Shown piece after piece: positions 1,244 through 33,932 of a stretch of DNA of 54,394 bases. The notes under the pieces are model-generated. The model made no database searches and had not been told where the DNA came from. It was given only the letters and a program-made list of their open reading frames with translations. This DNA is from a virus (taxonomy: Duplodnaviria; Heunggongvirae; Uroviricota; Caudoviricetes), in the IMG/VR virus record IMGVR_UViG_2541047753_000004, one strand, 5' to 3'. The translations under genes and the position numbers were made by a program. Numbering within the stretch: position 1 is the first letter of the stretch; each line of letters starts with the position of its first letter.

Positions 1244-2677
1244 TCAAGGCTGCCCAGTCTTACCAGCATCAGCAGAAACAGCTTTGAGGATATAGGGTTC
1301 CAGAAGTCTGGCAACGGCTTCAAATACTGGCACCACAACGGAGTTACCGAACTGCCGATATGACTGAGTATCTGAAACCGGAATACGGAATGGTTTCCCT
1401 CCAGGTTTTTCAAACCCCATAAGGCGTGCGCACTCTCGGGGAGTCAGCCTGCGTGGTCGACGAGCCTGGTTACTCTCATTCATAAAGTCAGCCTCTCCCG
1501 TTGCCATATCCCAACCACGATCAATAAGAATTTCTGATCCGTCTTTGTGATATCTGGCAGAAAGTGTGCGTGCAATGCTTTCCTTATTCTCAGGATTGAC
1601 CAACCCAAAGCCAAAACCATTCCCCTTGGCTGCATGCTTTTTGGCGTAGTTATAAAGGTACTCCCATAGTTTTGGCGTAAGTATATATTTACTGTCGACT
1701 ACAGGCTCCAGCAATTCACCAAATGATGGGCGGTGTTCCGGATAAAAACGACTGATATCACGCAAGGTAAACCCCTTGTGAATATTCAGATCTCGTCTAA
1801 ATCCGACCAGAACAATGCGTTCACGATGCTGAGGCAAAAAATGCTTCCCATCGATAATCTTTGGATCGTTTTTTCCCATTTCTGCAGCATCGGCAACTTC
1901 GTAGCCCAGCTCGTCAAGGGTCTCCATAATGACTTTGAAAGTTTTACCCTTATCATGGCTCTTCAGATTTTTGACATTTTCCAGCACAAAAATTGCCGGT
2001 TTTTTTGCTCGTATAATACGTGCCACGTCAAAAAAAAGTGTTCCTTGTGCTTCACATTCAAAACCATGCGCACGACCAAGTGAGTTTTTCTTACTAACAC
2101 CAGCAAGGCTAAATGGCTGGCACGGGAACCCCGCAAGAAGCACATCATGATCCGGCACATGCTCATCAATATATGCATAAGCATCCGTTTCCAATACATC
2201 GGTTTTATCACTCAGCGTGACTTCCCGAATATCGAGATTGAATTTATGCACCTGTTCATCGTTAAACCAGTTGGCCTTGTATGTACGCACAGCATCTTTA
2301 TTCCATTCACTGGTAAAAACACACTGACCTCCAATGGCCTCAAAACCTTTCCGTATCCCTCCAATTCCAGCAAATAAGTCAATGAAGCGGAAAGCATATT
2401 CCGGATGGTTTGCAGGTGGTTCTGGTAGCATCTTACGCAGAAGAGACTCTTCTACTGAAGTCAACGATTTTGGTAAACACTTGCCATTAATCCAGCGGTT
2501 AATGGTTTCACGGCTCCACTCATTTTTTCCGACTTTTCTCAGTAATTCAGCCACATACTTCTGATCATAGATTTCCAGCACTTTCTCGATAAGCTTTTTA
2601 TCATTTTCCTGTCGCAGCTTTTCTTCCGCCTCGGCTTCCTTCAGCAGATGCTGTGCCAACACTTCAAATTCAGACAT
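1244..2677 (-). CDS. ecoRIIM: DNA (cytosine-5) methyltransferase, M.EcoRII/Dcm-like
   Basis: C5-MTase motifs [10 protein letters not shown] (motif I), FPCQPFS (PCQ, motif IV), ENV (FVLENVKNL), QFGNSV; likely start at MSEFEVLAQ giving 477 aa; ORF track extends 14 codons upstream. Confidence 0.85.
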
Positions 2678-2895
2678 AATTCCTCCAAGGGGTCTAATGG
2701 GTGAAACTTTATCACTCATTCAACCCAGAAGGAAATGTTTTATCTGGATATTTAAACAGTGACTACAACGTAATCTAGCACTGGTGATGCTTTGTTAGGC
2801 ATAGAGAATCATTCTATATACGACTAATGACAGAAAAACAGCAGACAAGTAGTTTGTTCATAAATTAACGCATACAACGTGCCTGCGGTTTTTGA

Positions 2896-3852
<957 letters not shown>

Positions 3853-3909: not shown

Positions 3910-4464
3910 TCATTTATCTCCGACCGGAAACTTCTTATACAGTGTCGATATACCAACATCATAGATGATCGCCACCTTCTGGCGAGGAACGCCTGATGCA
4001 ATTAATCGCCCGGCCTGCGCCCATTGTTCTGGTGTAAGTTTGGGACGACGTCCACCAATTCGTCCCTGTGCGCGAGCAGCTTCCAGTCCAGCTTTTGTTC
4101 GTTCAACAATCAGTTCTCGTTCCATTTCAGCCAGGGCACCCATCACATGAAAGAAAAAACGCCCCATCGGTGTGCTGGTATCAATAGCATCCGTCAGGCT
4201 GCGAAAATTAACGCCACGTTCGCGCAACTCCTCAACCAGAATGACCAGATGCCGCATACTACGCCCTAGCCGATCCAGCTTCCAGACAACCAGAGTGTCA
4301 CCTGCCGATAATGTCCTGAGCAGTTTTTTCAGTCCCGGCCTTTCGGACTTTGTACCGCTTATCTTGTCTTCAAAAATCAGCTCGCATCCTGCACAGTTCA
4401 GCGCATTACGTTGTAGATCTGTGTTCTGGTCATTTGTTGACACACGTACATAGCCAATAAGCAT
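3910..4464 (-). CDS. pin: Serine recombinase, DNA invertase Pin/Gin/Hin family
   Basis: MLIGYVRVSTNDQNTDLQRNAL... with catalytic Ser context and C-terminal HTH; 184 aa from MLIGY start; adjacent to inverted crossover sites. Confidence 0.9.
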   Translation of the reverse strand: MLIGYVRVSTNDQNTDLQRNALNCAGCELIFEDKISGTKSERPGLKKLLRTLSAGDTLVVWKLDRLGRSMRHLVILVEELRERGVNFRSLTDAIDTSTPMGRFFFHVMGALAEMERELIVERTKAGLEAARAQGRIGGRRPKLTPEQWAQAGRLIASGVPRQKVAIIYDVGISTLYKKFPVGDK

Positions 4465-4490
4465 GGTAGATCTCCCTGACAAAAGCAGGA

Positions 4491-4883
4491 ATGATGCCAT
4501 TTGCTCGTTATTTCTGCATTTTCATAAACGTTGGTTTGGGAGAAGGTTCAGCATTACCTGTTGGTGCACCTGCGCCTCAGCTTCCTGATATACCTACAAC
4601 TGTGTGGCTTAATTCCGTCCCAGCAGATCTTACTTCTGAAGACGGTTTAGATCTTCAAAGGGCTCACATGGCTGATCCACTGCCGTCTCTGGGCGGTGTA
4701 ATTATTTTTGCCAGGGCAGATTCGAGTGGGTGTGATACGGGATTTTCAACTCAGGGTTGTACTCCCGCAACTTTTAATGTTAGAGATTTACATGATGCTG
4801 GTGATAACCAGGTGCATATTAATTTCAATTCCAGTATCGCCGTAGCTGGTGTCGATGCTGTTTTTATTGCATTAGACTCATAA
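4491..4883 (+). CDS. Alternative tail-fibre C-terminal segment (silent in current orientation)
   Basis: ORF reads through the left crossover site (…GLGEGSALPV…); inversion would fuse it in frame to the constant fibre N-terminus at 6444-6721. Confidence 0.45.
   Translation: MMPFARYFCIFINVGLGEGSALPVGAPAPQLPDIPTTVWLNSVPADLTSEDGLDLQRAHMADPLPSLGGVIIFARADSSGCDTGFSTQGCTPATFNVRDLHDAGDNQVHINFNSSIAVAGVDAVFIALDS
4519..4544. repeat. Invertase crossover site (ix-like), left copy
   Basis: 26-bp site ttttcataaacgttggtttgggagaa; reverse complement TTCTCCCAAACC AA CGTTTATGAAAA resembles hix/gix-type sites. Confidence 0.7.
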
Positions 4884-23094: not shown

Positions 23095-23580
23095 TCAGAT
23101 TGTCAGAAACGGGTTAGTGGCTTTCTTCTTCCCCGCCAGGCCAATCAGACGCTGGCGGCTGCTGGGGTCGAGTCCGAGCATTGCCCCCGTGCTGCTCATC
23201 TCGGACTCCTGTTCTTTTTTGGCGGTCAGCTCCGGATTTTTGACCATGCCGCCCATTGCACCGGTGATGGTGTTGCCCTGTCTGGCAATATTTTTCACGG
23301 CACGTCGCCAGAATTCATAGGCCACACACCACCGCTCAAGTACCGCCAGGTCAGTCACGCACAGCAGGCCCTGACCGCAGAGTTCTTTGGTTGTCAGTTG
23401 CCACATGATCGTGGCGAGAGGGAGATCTTCTTCAGCGAACCACTCCGGTGGCTCAACACCTTTGATGGGCGTAAAAACAGGTTCATCTTTATTCAGGGCT
23501 CGCTTGCCGGGGTTTCCGGCCAGCGCCTTGCGCGCCGTTGGCTTGGGGCGACGCCCGGAACGCCCCGCCGTTCCAGCCAT
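23095..23580 (-). CDS. Terminase small subunit (P27-family-like)
   Basis: Starts [14 protein letters not shown], typical of P27-family small terminases. Confidence 0.75.
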
Positions 23581-28363: not shown

Positions 28364-29173
28364 TCAATGAACGGTATCGAGCAGCTTTAACAGCTCAGGG
28401 AATCGGGATTCGAAGAAATGCGGCTGCGTCTCACGCGGATTTGCGGGACTGGTGATGTTCTTGCCGAACATGCAGCCTTTCGCCGTCAGCGACCAGAATT
28501 TTTTGATGTTGTTAATCGCGGTACGGCTGTATCGTTCGCGCTGCTCGACGATCCCCAGTTTCACCATCTGGTGATATGCCTGATTAGCCGTCAGGCGGAT
28601 ACCATACTGCTTCAGCAGTGCACTCAGTGACAGCGTGGGGCGGCTTGAGCCATCAGGCGCGTCAGCAGGAGCATCAATGGCATAGCGCGGTGCCAGATTC
28701 GGTAAGCCAACAGCCTCCTGGAGTTTCTGACAGGCACCAAGCACTGAAGAGTTAGACAGGTTTAACTCCCGGCGCATAAAGTCCAGCAGGATCACGCCAG
28801 CCTGCATCTTGTCAGCAGCCTGCCCGGATAATTTTTCCGGTGCGCTGGTTACCATATCGAAAGTACGGATCACCTTCAGATGGAATGACGGGCTGATCCA
28901 CATTGCATAGGCATACACCAGTTCTTTGCAGACATACGTCCCCTGGTTATTTCCGCCATTAATGACGCTAACTGGTTGATTTTGTTCCAGAGGCGGAATT
29001 CCACCCTCGGTGAAAAGTTGTTCAATCAATTCACAGGTTTGCTTATTGGAGAGCCAGTATTTCGGGCGGTTTTTTTGTTCTCCCCCGGCTGCCCTGTGCA
29101 GATCGTTCAGGCTGTAACGCCCATAAGCATCACGACGAACTTCAATACCATCAATAACCATCAGATTATTCAT
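28364..29173 (-). CDS. KilA-N domain protein / antirepressor-like
   Basis: 269 aa; N-terminal MNNLMVIDGIEVRRDAYGRYSLNDLHRAAGG typical of KilA-N. Confidence 0.65.
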   Translation of the reverse strand: MNNLMVIDGIEVRRDAYGRYSLNDLHRAAGGEQKNRPKYWLSNKQTCELIEQLFTEGGIPPLEQNQPVSVINGGNNQGTYVCKELVYAYAMWISPSFHLKVIRTFDMVTSAPEKLSGQAADKMQAGVILLDFMRRELNLSNSSVLGACQKLQEAVGLPNLAPRYAIDAPADAPDGSSRPTLSLSALLKQYGIRLTANQAYHQMVKLGIVEQRERYSRTAINNIKKFWSLTAKGCMFGKNITSPANPRETQPHFFESRFPELLKLLDTVH

Positions 29174-29192: not shown

Positions 29193-29582
29193 TCAGGCGG
29201 CTGCACCCGCCGGTTTCTCATACTTACTGATAGTGATCTCGACCTTCCCTTTCGGGATAACCGGTCCCCACTCCACCAGCATTCTTTTCACCTGTCTGTC
29301 GTCTTCCCACACACCCGCGTGGGTCAGGGCGTCAAACAGCGCCTTGTTATAGTTGTCCAGATCGCGGATCCGGTTATCCGGAGGAAACAACACGATCTCC
29401 ACTGAAGCAGGTGCCGACGTTGGTTTTGGCAGACGACGTAACTGCTCAACTATTGCTGCGCACGCCGCGCTCTGAAATTTTCGCCCCGCCGCGCTTATCA
29501 GGCTCTTACCAGCAAATGCCCCTTTGTTGGGGTGTCGCCAGTAGGTGTTCACGCTGGGCGGGAAAGGCAGGATCAGCTTCAT
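29193..29582 (-). CDS. rusA: Holliday junction resolvase RusA
   Basis: 129 aa; PPSVNTYW...RDLDNYNKALFDALTHAGVWEDDRQV matches RusA catalytic region. Confidence 0.85.
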   Translation of the reverse strand: MKLILPFPPSVNTYWRHPNKGAFAGKSLISAAGRKFQSAACAAIVEQLRRLPKPTSAPASVEIVLFPPDNRIRDLDNYNKALFDALTHAGVWEDDRQVKRMLVEWGPVIPKGKVEITISKYEKPAGAAA

Positions 29583-29905
29583 ACTTTCAGGCCCCTCTCA
29601 TGTAACCAGTGGGCTGCACGCAGCCTGGCGTTTTCCTCACCGACAAGCAGTGAGCGGATAATCCCGACCGCCTCGCTGTCGTCGTCCTTCACCGCGGTAT
29701 GAAGCGTGATCCCCCGGGCCACACCACGCTTTATCGTGATGACGCCTTTTTTCTCCAGTGCGCGAAGATGCTCCACCGCTGCATTCACCGAACGGTATCC
29801 CAGCATGGTTGCCACCTCCTGATTGGTTGGCGGGAAGCCACGCTCTTTCTGATAAGAAATCAGCATATCCAGCACCTGCTGCTGGCATTGAGTTAACGTC
29901 GTCAT
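29579..29905 (-). CDS. LexA N-terminal DNA-binding-domain protein (no peptidase domain)
   Basis: LTQCQQQVLDMLISYQKERGFPPTNQEVATMLGYRSVNAAVEHLRALEKKGVI parallels the LexA winged HTH; only 108 aa. Confidence 0.6.
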   Translation of the reverse strand: MTTLTQCQQQVLDMLISYQKERGFPPTNQEVATMLGYRSVNAAVEHLRALEKKGVITIKRGVARGITLHTAVKDDDSEAVGIIRSLLVGEENARLRAAHWLHERGLKV

Positions 29906-30555
29906 GCCGCCATCTCCCTGACCAGCTTTTCCGCCTGCAGGCGAACCTGCGCCAGAAACGCCTCACCACATGCCTCAAGTTCATCGCGCCCGATGTAGCT
30001 GATTGCCGGTCCCTTCCAGGTCTTGTCGAAAACAGCAATAGCACCAGCGAAGAAAGCGCCTGTCGGCACCTGCTTCTCATCCTTCGGGATAAACCAGGCA
30101 GGCAGTTCAAAACCAATACGCCCGCGAATAAAAGCAATATGATCTGCATCTTCCGGCCACCACACTTCGCTGGTGGCAGCTTTGATCAGGAAAACATAGC
30201 GCCCGCCCTTATCACGCATGGCACTGGCATGCTTCATGATGTAACGCATGCCGGTGATGTATTGCCCCTCATGCTGACTGGCGCGGCTGTATGGGGGATT
30301 TCCAAAGGCAGCACCTTTAAGCTCCGCAAGGCGTTCTGACCAGTCATGCGCCAGCGCGTTGTCTTCCGCCGTGTAATACGCAGCACATTTGGCGTTATCA
30401 CCGTCAGTGAACAGATCCAGAACAAACGGACCAAACAGGGTGTTAATTCCCCAGAAAATGTTGTCCGGCGTGCGCCACTGATCGCCCACTTCCTTCAGTT
30501 CATGGGCTGGTTTGTTCCGCAGTTCCACCAGCTCCTGGCAATATTTATTACTCAT
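29902..30555 (-). CDS. Phage N6-adenine DNA methyltransferase (orphan)
   Basis: FGNPPYS (NPPY) motif; phage orphan MTase architecture. Confidence 0.8.
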   Translation of the reverse strand: MSNKYCQELVELRNKPAHELKEVGDQWRTPDNIFWGINTLFGPFVLDLFTDGDNAKCAAYYTAEDNALAHDWSERLAELKGAAFGNPPYSRASQHEGQYITGMRYIMKHASAMRDKGGRYVFLIKAATSEVWWPEDADHIAFIRGRIGFELPAWFIPKDEKQVPTGAFFAGAIAVFDKTWKGPAISYIGRDELEACGEAFLAQVRLQAEKLVREMAA

Positions 30556-31049
30556 TAAGCCCCCACGTAATTCCCTGACAGATACCACTCTTCACCTGAT
30601 GCAGCCCGCTTACTGCTTTTCCGTAAACACCGTTCACGACGCGCCAGAAAATTGTTTCGTTCTGGCTGGGAGTAGCTTTCACGGAATGCCGCCATCCACA
30701 CCGTTGCAGCACGACGGTATAAGCCCCTGGACTCCAGTTCTTCCGCCTGGCGGGTCAGGCACAAAATCACCCGGGGATCGTTAGTGCCGACATAGAAATT
30801 GCGCACAGGTCTGGTTTCACGAACTGGTTGTGGTTCCGGCTCCTGCGCTCTCTCAGTCAGGCGTGGGAAATGTCTGCGTGTATCTCCTTCACAACGGTGA
30901 GCCACACGCCCACTCTGACGTAACTTGCTTGCTGACTGCAGAACGCGCTGCCGTGAGTAACCTGCAAAAGCATCCGCAATGTCTCCGGAAGTACAGCCCG
31001 GATGGGCTTCAATGAATTTCTGAACGTCATTCAAAAGACTCATGATCAC
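30555..31049 (-). CDS. Hypothetical regulator, PerC-like C-terminal region
   Basis: ESRGLYRRAATVWMAAF resembles the PerC family signature as I recall it. Confidence 0.4.
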   Translation of the reverse strand: MIMSLLNDVQKFIEAHPGCTSGDIADAFAGYSRQRVLQSASKLRQSGRVAHRCEGDTRRHFPRLTERAQEPEPQPVRETRPVRNFYVGTNDPRVILCLTRQAEELESRGLYRRAATVWMAAFRESYSQPERNNFLARRERCLRKSSKRAASGEEWYLSGNYVGA

Positions 31050-31987
31050 CCCCTGAATCCTGCCGGGATCTGGCTGTAGTCCACGTTGTCGTAACTGGCT
31101 TTGAAGTACGGGTCTTCGCGTTTTTCGGTGTACGTGCTGACGGACGGCGATAAGCGCAGGGAAAGCTCATCCCATTTTTCCCGCAACTTCGACGGGCTGA
31201 GCACGTTACGGCACCAGAACGGATCGCGGCTGACGCGGCTGTACATCTCGCAGATTTGTTTGTGAGTACGACCATCCTGCACACACATCAGGCGAATTTC
31301 GTTTGCCCATGCTGTCCAGTTAGGTTCTTTGGGACGAACCACCTCGCCGTCACATTCGGCGGCCTGCTCGTACAGGGCGATGATTTTTTTCCAGAGCCAC
31401 TGTGCGCAGGTCAAATCATCCTGCGTCCCCCACTGGCGCTTTTTAGGGCTGAATACAACCGCATCAGGATGGCGAGTTAAAAAATCCTGTTCATCCGTCT
31501 GCGTGTCCGGTTGCGAAGCGTCCGGACGAGAAGGTTTTTTATCTGACGGATCATGTTTTGATTTTACTGACGGATCCCCGCCAGATTCTGACGGGTGAAA
31601 ACCCGCTTTTTTGCCAGATTTCGACGCATCAAATTTTGACGGGTCAGATTTTGATGCGTCAGATTTTGACGGGTCAGAATCTGACAGTTGAGAAAATGCC
31701 GCTGCCTGAAGCTTCGCAACGTTAAGCTGATAAACATTCGACGCATTGCGGTTACCCTGGCGACGCGCCTTACGCGTTAACCAGCCTTCTGCTTCCAGCC
31801 GTGCGATAGCCGTTCTGACGGTACTCATCCCCGCGCCAATCTGACGGGCAATAGTTTCAATTGATGGCCAGCACACACCTTCGTCATTACTGAAATCAGC
31901 CAGGCGGGCCATAATTGCCACGCTGGATAATTTCATGCCTGACGCAGCGCAACCATCCCATACATAGCCGGTTAATTTAGTGCTCAT
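31046..31987 (-). CDS. Replication initiation protein (O-like, N-terminal wHTH)
   Basis: 313 aa; N-terminal HTH, internal repeated peptide SDSDPSKSDASKSDPSKFDASKS encoded by DNA iterons; downstream of cro/cII-like genes. Confidence 0.7.
   Translation of the reverse strand: MSTKLTGYVWDGCAASGMKLSSVAIMARLADFSNDEGVCWPSIETIARQIGAGMSTVRTAIARLEAEGWLTRKARRQGNRNASNVYQLNVAKLQAAAFSQLSDSDPSKSDASKSDPSKFDASKSGKKAGFHPSESGGDPSVKSKHDPSDKKPSRPDASQPDTQTDEQDFLTRHPDAVVFSPKKRQWGTQDDLTCAQWLWKKIIALYEQAAECDGEVVRPKEPNWTAWANEIRLMCVQDGRTHKQICEMYSRVSRDPFWCRNVLSPSKLREKWDELSLRLSPSVSTYTEKREDPYFKASYDNVDYSQIPAGFRG
31539..31690. repeat. Putative replication origin iterons inside the O-like gene
   Basis: Tandem ~15-bp units (ATTTTGACGGGTCAG and variants) repeated about 6-8 times. 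Confidence 0.6.
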
Positions 31988-33142: not shown

Positions 33143-33239
33143 ATGACCTCCACATATTGCGTGATAAGCATATTATTTCACGCAAATATTTTGCGCAAGT
33201 TGATTTGCTTAACGCGCAATAAAGAAATGTAATAAACGC
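33143..33239. promoter_or_regulatory. Immunity operator/promoter region
   Basis: Repeated palindromic half-sites TTGCGTGA / TCACGCAA / TTGCGCAA / CGCGCAA between the divergent cro and repressor starts. Confidence 0.55.
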
Positions 33240-33932
33240 ATGAACATAGGAAACCGAGTCAGACAACTTCGCCAGGCGAAGAACATGAAAATCGCCGATC
33301 TCGCTGAAGCAATAGGAGTGGATGCGGCGAATATCTCACGCCTGGAAACAGGTAAGCAGAAACAATTCACTGAACAAGCCCTGAGTAATATTGCCAGGAG
33401 CTTAGGTGTTGATATTGCTGATCTCTTTACCTCAGACTTCAAAAGTAATACTGTATGTAAAAACAGTATTAGTGAGGATGTTGCGCAGGTGAAGGATGTA
33501 TTCCGTATTGAAATGCTGGATGTCAGTGCCAGTGCGGGAAATGGCCTTATCCAGGGCGGTGATGTCATTGATGTGATTCATGCCATTGAATACAGAACTG
33601 ATAATGCTGTATCGATGTTTGGCGGACGGCCAGCCAATCACATTAAAGTTATCAACGTTCGTGGGGACAGTATGTGTCCAACCATTGAGCCAGGAGATCT
33701 CATCTTCGTTGATGTCAGTATCAATCAGTTTGATGGAGATGGTATCTATGTATTTGGTTTTGATGATAAAATTTATGTCAAACGACTGCAAATGATACCT
33801 GACAAACTACTGGTGATTTCTGATAACCAGATTTACCGTGAATGGGGAATTACCAGCGAAAATGAACACCGGTTTATGGTCTTTGGAAAGGTCTTAATCA
33901 GCCAGTCACAAACCCTTAAGCGACACAATTAA
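33240..33932 (+). CDS. cI: CI-like repressor (HTH + S24 LexA-like peptidase)
   Basis: N-terminal HTH IADLAEAIGVDAANISRLE; C-terminal VRGDSMCPTIEPGD (catalytic Ser) and KRL (Lys); no SD upstream, possibly leaderless. Confidence 0.9.
   Translation: MNIGNRVRQLRQAKNMKIADLAEAIGVDAANISRLETGKQKQFTEQALSNIARSLGVDIADLFTSDFKSNTVCKNSISEDVAQVKDVFRIEMLDVSASAGNGLIQGGDVIDVIHAIEYRTDNAVSMFGGRPANHIKVINVRGDSMCPTIEPGDLIFVDVSINQFDGDGIYVFGFDDKIYVKRLQMIPDKLLVISDNQIYREWGITSENEHRFMVFGKVLISQSQTLKRHN

What the first reader, a model, noticed from the sequence alone, without database searches (positions are those of the whole stretch)
29579..29905. LexA DNA-binding domain without the autoprotease domain
The 108-aa protein reproduces the LexA N-terminal winged HTH but lacks the S24 peptidase domain. 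Such a protein could occupy SOS boxes without being cleavable after DNA damage, or regulate phage genes independently of the SOS signal.
Basis: partly seen in the sequence, partly recalled or inferred. Interest (0 to 1): 0.45.

Follow-up and report, generated by a model that had tools for sequence, protein, structure and literature searches.

The report
Prophage LexA look-alike without protease
A lambdoid E. coli prophage carries a well-conserved 108-residue copy of the DNA-binding head of the SOS repressor LexA with no self-cleaving domain; the gene family is common and already annotated, but its function has not been tested, and it most plausibly acts as a damage-proof stand-in for LexA.

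Summary
ORF 29579..29905 (-) encodes 108 aa. [quoted passage not shown] There is no S24 protease domain, and ATGA overlaps with dam upstream and rusA downstream leave no room for one.

It includes SfV orf42 and copies in Stx2, cdtI and mEp460 phages. The 1.6-kb region occurs in 2673 of 5426 complete E. coli genomes.

The gene is under strong purifying selection (pN/pS 0.06). Four of LexA's five base-contacting residues are kept (S39, N41, A42, E45); E44 is V.

Relatives at 38-48% identity always lie just upstream of rusA. In a Klebsiella/Enterobacter subfamily the gene sits in an operon behind a strong SOS box, in phages without a cleavable repressor.

The best reading (about 0.45) is a RecA-proof binder of SOS boxes that restores repression after host LexA is destroyed. 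The main rival (about 0.3) is a dedicated regulator with its own target site, as shown for the truncated LexA homologue gp6 of phage GIL01. I found no functional study of this family. Interest is moderate.

The parts
29579..29905 (-). Gene for the 108-aa LexA-NTD-only protein (stop codon included)
   Evidence: ORF list; PF01726; phrog_362 full-length match, E=5.4e-59; pN/pS 0.06
29699..29905 (-). Codons 1-69: LexA-type winged helix-turn-helix (H6-22, H28-35, H40-52, beta-hairpin wing 56-68)
29750..29791 (-). Codons 39-52: recognition helix SVNAAVEHLRALEK (LexA has SPNAAEEHLKALAR). S39, N41, A42 and E45 are kept; E44 is V
   Evidence: Alignments; contact residues as listed in PMC3091678; helix invariant in 80 of 80 close loci
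29582..29695 (-). Codons 71-108: flexible linker (71-75, pLDDT<50) followed by a conserved two-helix tail (H75-87, H93-102). Proposed dimerisation element; absent from LexA
   Evidence: AF2 model; tail conserved in relatives at 38-48% identity; no PDB sequence or fold match
29913..29918 (-). Shine-Dalgarno-like GGGAGA, 8 nt upstream of the ATG
   Evidence: Read from the sequence
29902..30588 (-). Upstream phage Dam N6-adenine methyltransferase gene. Its stop overlaps the LexA-like start (ATGA)
   Evidence: PF05869, E=1.2e-45; sequence; PGAP annotation in L001
29193..29582 (-). Downstream RusA Holliday-junction resolvase gene. Its start overlaps the LexA-like stop (ATGA). This linkage is kept in all distant relatives examined
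   Evidence: PF05866; synteny
33449..33468 (.). Only strong SOS box in the prophage, TACTGTATGTAAAAACAGTA, inside the cI linker codons. Certainly a candidate host LexA site, and the only candidate phage-borne target for the LexA-like protein
   Evidence: Pattern searches; PWM score 25.8; conserved in cI homologues at 84% and 70% identity while the flanks diverge
33240..33932 (+). cI-type repressor (HTH plus S24 with an A-G site, GDSM and K). It shows that the phage has its own RecA-cleavable switch
   Evidence: ORF translation; NCBIfam S24-type hits; S24 HMM hits in sister loci

Best explanation
The gene encodes a RecA-proof surrogate of LexA. Shown: the protein is a LexA-type winged HTH that lacks the cleavage site, the Ser/Lys protease and the LexA dimerisation domain. 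In their place it has a short, conserved two-helix tail. The gene is under purifying selection and is translationally coupled to dam and rusA in the operon that runs from the replication genes to Q. Inferred: it is made only after the prophage CI is inactivated or after infection. It dimerises on DNA through the LexA-like wing and/or the tail. It binds CTGT-N8-ACAG SOS operators. Because RecA* cannot trigger its cleavage and it lacks the C-terminal end that ClpXP recognises on the natural LexA N-terminal fragment, it re-occupies SOS boxes after host LexA has been destroyed. That would shut down host SOS functions and LexA-controlled phage genes: the operator inside cI here, and antirepressor, KilA-N and methyltransferase promoters in relatives. 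In the sister subfamily the gene lies behind an SOS-box promoter, which would give LexA-style negative autoregulation of an SOS-triggered induction cassette.
For: The fold is LexA NTD, with 50% identity and 1.0 A rmsd to LexA in its DNA complex. Of the LexA DNA-contacting residues S39, N41, A42, E44 and E45 (PMC3091678), four are identical, and this helix is invariant in 80 of 80 close loci. The wing GVITIKRGVARGI closely matches LexA GVIEIVSGASRGI, and Q8, K53, R64 and G65 are invariant across the family plus LexA. The wing is held responsible for LexA's fixed half-site spacing (PMC8565304). The isolated LexA NTD is known to retain SOS-box binding and repression and must be removed by ClpXP (PMC10584840). 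In the P0131/P0132 subfamily, 28 of 34 loci carry the order SOS box, phrog_1813, LexA-like gene, phrog_1212, (rusA), DUF968. Of 80 phrog_1813 loci, 77 have a strong SOS box upstream and 52 carry the LexA-like gene. L087 and L092 show a terminator, then a promoter, then the SOS box. The cassette occurs only where no S24 repressor is detected (0 of 30, against 11 of 12 other loci). This copies the Gifsy design of terminator, LexA box, dinI and antirepressor, in which the co-expressed DinI is also an SOS damper (PMC3121763). Strong SOS boxes occur in 47 of 80 close loci, against 0 hits in 652 kb of shuffled sequence.
Against: There is no direct evidence of DNA binding or of its specificity. Residue 44 is never acidic in the family, and residue 45 is L, T, D or I in several subfamilies (SSNAVLLHLR, SPNAVALHLR, SQNTVFIHLR), so specificity is not uniform. 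The SOS boxes are explained by host LexA alone: 28 of 80 phrog_1813 cassettes and the Klebsiella phage carrying the cI-internal box lack the gene. Of 80 close loci, 33 have no SOS box within reach, including 9 of the 24 that have at least 9 kb on both sides. This window has no SOS box near the gene's own operon. The characterised precedent gp6 changed its specificity at 44% identity to its host LexA.
Confidence: 0.45

Rival explanations
1. It is a dedicated phage transcription factor that binds its own non-SOS site as activator or repressor. This is what the truncated LexA homologue gp6 of tectivirus GIL01 does: it binds at -43.5 of the late promoter P3 and activates it.
For: gp6 is a LexA-NTD-only protein with 44% identity to its host LexA, and it recognises a distinct sequence and activates transcription (PMC6182141). 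The family's recognition helix varies at positions 42-45 between subfamilies. Many stand-alone LexA-NTD proteins exist in unrelated phages. A third of close phage loci have no SOS box.
Against: No alternative palindrome or repeat stands out. CTGT/ACAG pairs at spacings 0-20 other than 8 are at chance level in the prophage. The inverted repeats between 26000 and 33300 are the CI/Cro operators, origin iterons and terminators. Unlike gp6 (helix SHKTAHRYL, no BLASTP similarity), this protein keeps N41, A42 and E45. Late-gene activation is already provided by Q.
Confidence: 0.3
2. It is an accessory factor of the recombination and resolution module. On this reading it binds DNA or a partner to assist or restrain RusA (and DUF968/HNH), or represses a specific host competitor such as ruvAB, rather than acting as a general SOS repressor.
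For: The gene is immediately upstream of rusA in the window and in all five distant contexts examined, often with overlapping stop and start codons. A DNA methyltransferase of varying family lies just upstream in 4 of 6 contexts.
Against: The whole block from the LexA-like gene through rusA and DUF968 to Q is syntenic, so the linkage may only reflect shared ancestry of the module. In the Klebsiella-type cassette rusA is often absent while the LexA-like gene stays (L181-L202). Phages with Dam-RusA but no LexA-like gene exist (L174).
Confidence: 0.1
3. It is a decaying remnant of a captured lexA gene with no present function.
For: The alignment to TIGR00498 runs through model position 91, past the NTD into the cleavage-site region. 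This is consistent with origin by truncation of a lexA gene.
Against: pN/pS is 0.06 over 55 alleles. Intact ORFs are found across six or more enterobacterial genera down to 38% identity, with the tail conserved. The gene has an RBS and is translationally coupled.
Confidence: 0.03

Closest known systems
E. coli LexA (SOS repressor), N-terminal domain; PDB 1lea and 3jso
   Same: Same winged-HTH fold. It shows 50% identity over residues 1-69 and keeps S39, N41, A42, E45, the wing and the phosphate-contact candidates Q8, K53 and R64.
   Different: It has no Ala84-Gly85 site, no Ser119/Lys156 protease and no LexA dimerisation domain. E44 is V. It has an unrelated two-helix tail. It scores below the TIGR00498 cut-off. 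It is phage-encoded.
LexA N-terminal cleavage fragment (residues 1-84)
   Same: NTD-only species. The natural fragment still binds SOS boxes and represses (PMC10584840).
   Different: The natural fragment exposes a ClpX-recognised C-terminus and is degraded. This protein ends differently (…ERGLKV) after an extra helical hairpin, so it is presumably stable (inference).
GIL01 gp6 (tectivirus, Bacillus thuringiensis): truncated LexA homologue
   Same: Phage-encoded LexA wHTH without a protease domain, acting alongside host LexA in the lytic switch (PMC6182141).
   Different: gp6 is 66 aa with no tail and a recognition helix SHKTAHRYL. It shows no BLASTP similarity to this protein, derives from a Firmicute LexA, binds a non-LexA site and activates. 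It is an independent origin.
phrog_362 / NCBI 'LexA family transcriptional regulator' (SfV orf42, mEp460 gp46, cdtI, SfII, SfIV, Stx2a/Stx2c phage genes)
   Same: This is the family the gene belongs to: 95-99% identity, the same dam to LexA-like to rusA position.
   Different: Nothing differs. The names are predictions from the domain, and no experiment on the family was found in the searchable literature.
Gifsy-type SOS cassette (terminator, LexA box, dinI homologue, antirepressor)
   Same: The sister subfamily has the same design in the same nin-region position: terminator, SOS-box promoter, small ORF (phrog_1813), then the LexA-like gene, in phages without an S24 repressor (PMC3121763).
   Different: The co-expressed factor is a LexA NTD rather than DinI. 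phrog_1813 is uncharacterised and was not shown to be related to GfoA/GftA. The window's own phage uses a cleavable CI and lacks the cassette.

Membership tests
LexA (TIGR00498 equivalog, SOS repressor) | N-terminal LexA-type winged HTH (PF01726) | tested here: met
   PF01726, E=2.9e-19, full model; structure match
LexA (TIGR00498 equivalog, SOS repressor) | C-terminal S24 peptidase/dimerisation domain with Ser-Lys dyad | tested here: not met
   The protein ends at residue 108. No PF00717 hit. rusA starts at the stop codon. None of the 120 listed homologues has PF00717
LexA (TIGR00498 equivalog, SOS repressor) | Conserved Ala-Gly autocleavage site | tested here: not met
   The aligned position is V88-G89 here, A/V/S in close alleles, and not conserved in distant members
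LexA (TIGR00498 equivalog, SOS repressor) | Whole-protein score above the curated cut-off | tested here: not met
   67.8 bits against 110.95; only model positions 1-91 of 203 are matched
LexA (TIGR00498 equivalog, SOS repressor) | Binds CTGT-N8-ACAG SOS boxes | not testable with these tools
   Only indirect evidence: 4 of 5 contact residues kept, and SOS boxes in related loci
phrog_362 / enterobacterial prophage 'LexA family protein' | Full-length match: wHTH plus a roughly 35-residue helical tail, about 106 aa | tested here: met
   phrog_362, E=5.4e-59, covering 1-108 of the protein and 1-106 of 106 profile positions; 95-99% identity to SfV orf42 and others
phrog_362 / enterobacterial prophage 'LexA family protein' | Position in a lambdoid prophage immediately upstream of rusA, before DUF968 and Q | tested here: met
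   Window gene order; the same order in L001, SfV, mEp460 and the distant members
GIL01 gp6-type truncated LexA activators | Sequence relationship to gp6 | tested here: not met
   BLASTP finds no alignment at E<=100; the recognition helices differ
GIL01 gp6-type truncated LexA activators | Binds a non-LexA site overlapping a -35 element and activates a late promoter | not testable with these tools
   No candidate site found; needs experiment

The most novel reading that the evidence does not exclude
A prophage-encoded LexA surrogate that RecA cannot inactivate, present in the genomes of about half of sequenced E. coli strains, shuts the SOS regulon back down once a prophage has been induced. 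Its targets would include competitor prophages' LexA-controlled antirepressors, colicins and SOS-induced toxins. It would be the LexA-side counterpart of the DinI genes carried in Gifsy-type SOS cassettes, pointing to a general design of antirepressor plus SOS damper.
Probability: 0.35. Interest if true: 0.65.

Novelty: new member of a known kind. Interest (0 to 1): 0.4.

Why it matters
If the protein does bind SOS boxes, then many E. coli, Shigella and Stx-phage lysogens carry a switch that can override the host DNA-damage response from within the lytic programme. That would affect three things: how long SOS-driven mutagenesis and toxin or colicin expression last in induced cells, whether co-resident prophages with LexA-controlled antirepressors are co-induced, and how Stx phages behave under SOS-inducing antibiotics. 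If it instead has its own target, it would be a second, independent case of a phage converting a captured LexA head into a private regulator, after GIL01 gp6. Either outcome can be tested with simple binding and reporter assays.

Tried and rejected
1. Hidden or frameshifted S24 domain: rejected. The gene has ATGA overlaps on both sides, no PF00717 hit, and longer database 'homologues' are fusions with upstream Dam or HTH ORFs.

2. Alternative half-site spacings or orientations of CTGT/ACAG in the prophage: all at chance level.

3. Operator-like inverted repeats near the gene: only the CI/Cro operators (33155-33221), origin iterons (31623-31685) and terminators were found.

4. A promoter at the cI-internal SOS box: the consensus scan found none. 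Only a weak TTTACC-17-TACTGT match is visible by eye.

7. Trans-cleavable 'AG' in the tail (family consensus LLAGEE against LexA VAAGEP): rejected. The residue is V here, A/V/S among close alleles, and not conserved in distant members.

8. Testing whether the recognition helix tracks the host LexA: uninformative. All family members found are from Enterobacteriaceae, which share one SOS motif.

9. The genome-contig scan was swamped by genuine lexA genes from Halomonas and other genera, and gave nothing usable.

10. e14 as the source of the cI-internal box: no strong box in K-12 e14.

11. Ten literature searches found no functional study of this family. The only mention is a catalogue entry, Pham 237 in PMC8136144.

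12. phrog_1813 as a named antirepressor: all phage-record homologues are annotated 'hypothetical'.

Full report
**1. What is there**

It runs from 29579 to 29905 on the minus strand, starts with ATG and encodes 108 aa. A GGGAGA Shine-Dalgarno-like motif lies 8 nt upstream. Its start codon overlaps the stop codon of the upstream gene (ATGA at 29902-29905), and its stop codon overlaps the start of the downstream gene (ATGA at 29579-29582). The three genes are therefore translationally coupled, and there is no space for a further domain. The neighbours are a phage Dam methyltransferase (PF05869) and RusA (PF05866).

The wider order is that of a lambdoid prophage "nin" region: O-like replication protein, PerC/YfdN, Dam, LexA-like, RusA, KilA-N, DUF968/HNH, Q. 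The 1.6-kb stretch is 99.2% identical to E. coli chromosomes.

**2. The protein**

- Pfam LexA_DNA_bind covers residues 1-65 over the whole model (E=2.9e-19).
- phmmer against PDB sequences aligns residues 2-69 with E. coli LexA residues 2-69 (E=7e-16).
- An AlphaFold2 model (mean pLDDT 82.5) shows three helices and a beta-hairpin wing (residues 6-68), a disordered linker (71-75) and two further helices (75-87 and 93-102).
- No S24 peptidase signal exists in this protein or in any of the 120 listed homologues.
- The LexA equivalog model TIGR00498 is matched only over positions 1-91 of 203, at 67.8 bits against a cut-off of 110.95.

By the family's own criteria, the protein is not a LexA.

**3. 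It is a real, selected and common gene**

Fifty-five distinct alleles from 84 copies give pN/pS = 0.06, and 36 of 54 variable codon positions are third positions.

The gene is 95-99% identical to SfV orf42 and to genes of SfII, SfIV, cdtI, mEp460 and many Stx2a/Stx2c phages. The region occurs in 2673 of 5426 complete E. coli genomes, and 1688 of these have at least 80% coverage. PGAP names it "LexA family transcriptional regulator" or "LexA family protein". It matches phrog_362 ("transcriptional repressor") over its full length (E=5.4e-59).

An exhaustive profile search found full-length relatives at 38-48% identity. All those with names come from Enterobacteriaceae: Cronobacter, Kosakonia, Enterobacter, Cedecea, Klebsiella and Salmonella. 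It has no sequence or fold match in the PDB.

By analogy with other winged-HTH regulators that dimerise through C-terminal helices, I infer that the tail is a dimerisation element.

**4. DNA-recognition residues**

The E. coli LexA residues that contact DNA are S39, N41, A42, E44 and E45 (PMC3091678). This protein has S39, N41, A42, V44 and E45. Its recognition helix, SVNAAVEHLR, is invariant in 80 of 80 close loci.

The wing, GVITIKRGVARGI, is close to LexA's GVIEIVSGASRGI. The wing is held responsible for LexA's rigid half-site spacing (PMC8565304). Q8, K53, R64 and G65 are invariant across the family plus LexA.

Two cautions apply. Position 44 is never acidic anywhere in the family. Position 45 is L, T, D or I in some subfamilies (SSNAVLLHLR, SPNAVALHLR, SQNTVFIHLR). 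DNA binding is therefore very likely retained, but a canonical SOS-box specificity is likely only for the window's subfamily and the SPNAAAEHLK subfamily.

**5. Candidate targets**

I built a position weight matrix from 20 E. coli SOS boxes recalled from memory, so it rests on my own knowledge rather than a database. It finds one very strong site in the prophage: TACTGTATGTAAAAACAGTA at 33449-33468, score 25.8. By my recollection this is one mismatch from the umuDC operator. None of 100 shuffles gave any hit with three or fewer mismatches to the consensus.

The site lies inside the cI gene, in the codons of the linker between the HTH and S24 domains. It is conserved in cI homologues of a Salmonella phage (84% aa identity) and a Klebsiella phage (70%). 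In those homologues the surrounding linker diverges and the 8-bp spacer varies, which is the signature of an operator under selection. The Klebsiella phage has Dam and RusA but no LexA-like gene, so the box is first of all a host LexA site.

Other CTGT/ACAG spacings are at chance level, and no other operator-like palindrome lies near the gene.

Among 80 IMG/VR loci carrying a gene at least 98% identical:

| SOS box location | Loci (of 80) |
|---|---|
| Inside cI (cI-type) | 28 |
| At the start of a DNA methyltransferase gene downstream of Q | 20 |
| In front of a KilA-N gene just after rusA | 4 |
| None at score >= 20 | 33 |

Shuffled sequence gave 0 hits in 652 kb. This phage lineage is therefore densely wired to LexA, but the gene does not strictly co-occur with phage-borne SOS boxes.

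**6. Context of distant relatives**

In all five distant contexts examined, the gene lies directly upstream of rusA, or one small ORF away from it, followed by DUF968 and Q. A DNA methyltransferase of varying family lies upstream in four of six contexts, counting the window.

In the P0131/P0132 subfamily, 28 of 34 loci carry the cassette SOS box, phrog_1813 (75-82 aa), LexA-like gene, phrog_1212, (rusA), DUF968. L087 and L092 show a terminator hairpin, then a sigma-70-like promoter, then the SOS box. The box sequence varies between loci while CTGT and ACAG are kept.

A scan with phrog_1813 gave 80 loci. Of these, 77 have a strong upstream SOS box, 52 carry the LexA-like gene and 28 lack it.

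An S24 HMM finds no cleavable repressor within 6 kb upstream in any of the 30 cassette loci, but finds one in 11 of 12 loci without the cassette. L087 has a 128-aa HTH-only repressor.

This reproduces the published Gifsy design, in which a terminator and LexA box precede a dinI homologue and a small antirepressor in the nin region of phages with non-cleavable repressors (PMC3121763). In that design the passenger gene, DinI, is itself an SOS damper. Here the passenger is an uncleavable LexA head.

**7. Mechanism**

The best-supported explanation (confidence about 0.45) is that the protein is a RecA-proof stand-in for LexA.

- Shown: the architecture, the selection signal, the translational coupling, the retention of contact residues, and the SOS-box promoters in front of sister genes.
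- Inferred: expression only after CI loss (this window) or after LexA cleavage (the cassette subfamily); dimerisation through the wing and/or tail; binding to SOS boxes; and stability.

The stability inference rests on two points. The protein lacks the cleavage site, and it lacks the C-terminus that ClpXP recognises on the natural LexA N-terminal fragment. That natural fragment still represses and has to be degraded before SOS can switch on fully (PMC10584840).

The consequence would be re-repression of host and phage SOS promoters while RecA* is still active. In the cassette subfamily it would also give LexA-like negative autoregulation.

**8. Rivals**

- **A private regulator (about 0.3).** GIL01 gp6 is a truncated LexA homologue, 44% identical to its host LexA NTD, that binds a different site at -43.5 of the late promoter P3 and activates it (PMC6182141). 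However, gp6 is 66 aa, has no tail, has the helix SHKTAHRYL and shows no BLASTP similarity to this protein. It is an independent invention, and I found no candidate private site here.
- **A RusA or recombination accessory (about 0.1).** This is suggested by the invariant linkage to rusA. It is weakened because the whole block through to Q is syntenic, and because many cassette loci keep the gene without rusA.
- **A dead remnant (about 0.03).** This is contradicted by the selection signal.

**9. Comparison with what is known, and novelty**

As a sequence, this is an already annotated and very common prophage gene. As a kind of thing, phage-encoded LexA heads without a protease domain are known: gp6 is characterised, and many stand-alone LexA-NTD proteins appear among predicted phage structures.

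What is not known, within the searchable literature, is the function of this enterobacterial family, which is linked to rusA and carries the extra tail. Ten searches found only a catalogue entry, Pham 237 in PMC8136144. Papers in subscription journals could not be searched.

I rate it a new member of a known kind and give it an interest score of 0.4. The protein is not surprising in itself. It is, however, abundant, cheap to test, and placed where it could matter for SOS dynamics, for cross-talk between prophages in strains carrying several, and for Stx phage behaviour.

Noticed in passing
window 33449-33468 (inside cI 33240-33932, + strand); L173 ~6210; L174 ~6210: A near-consensus SOS box lies inside the cI repressor gene, in the variable linker between the HTH and S24 domains. 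TACTGTA and ACAGT are invariant in cI homologues at 84% and 70% identity, while the spacer and flanking codons diverge. A possible internal promoter (TTTACC, 17 nt, TACTGT) is also conserved. Its role is unknown: roadblock, internal transcript for a C-terminal-only CI, or antisense control.
   Followed up: partly
L087 5531-5961; L092 4480-4951; L176-L202, L209; L210-L289: There is a conserved cassette of terminator, promoter with a strong SOS box, and a 75-82-aa ORF of unknown function (phrog_1813). Of 80 such loci, 77 have the box. The cassette is found only where no S24-type repressor is detected (0 of 30, against 11 of 12 other loci). This makes phrog_1813 a candidate LexA-controlled antirepressor family of the Gifsy/186/N15 type. 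All homologues in phage records are annotated 'hypothetical'.
   Followed up: partly
L002 (SfV) ~34170; about 20 of 80 loci in L004-L083 at +3.8 to +6.6 kb; L092 7739; L178, L177, L179, L204: A recurrent strong SOS box (TACTGTAAAAATAAACAGTG) sits at the 5' end of a DNA methyltransferase gene between Q and the lysis genes (SfV orf48 type). This suggests LexA-controlled phage methyltransferases.
   Followed up: no
window 2742-2761 and 1244-2719 (-): An SOS-like box, ATCTGGATATTTAAACAGTG (PWM 18.3), lies 23 bp upstream of a C5 cytosine DNA methylase gene (PF00145 plus DNA_meth_N) at the left end of the window. It is next to a GIY-YIG gene (3028-3852) and a Hin/Gin-type invertase (3910-4500).
   Followed up: no
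L078 10765-10784 (also L059, L075, L077): In some close relatives the KilA-N gene just after rusA has a different N-terminus and its own terminator plus SOS-box promoter (TACTGTATTTATGAACAGTA). The window's KilA-N gene (28364-29173) lacks this.
   Followed up: partly
proteins P0126, P0128, P0136, P0139, P0144: Some proteins consist of two tandem LexA N-terminal domains and no S24 domain (140-222 aa). They may be single-chain pseudo-dimers of the LexA head. Their origin and context were not examined.
   Followed up: no
window 33155-33221 and 31623-31685: Inverted repeats TTGCGTGA…TCACGCAA and TTGCGCAA…TTGCGCAA lie between cro and cI and are probably the CI/Cro operators. GTCAGATTTTGAC-type iterons lie inside the O-like replication gene and are probably the origin.
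   Followed up: no
L003 (mEp460) ~23255-23283: Two adjacent strong SOS boxes lie upstream of a phage dinI homologue (gp21). This is another LexA-controlled SOS modulator in a phage that also carries the LexA-like gene.
   Followed up: no
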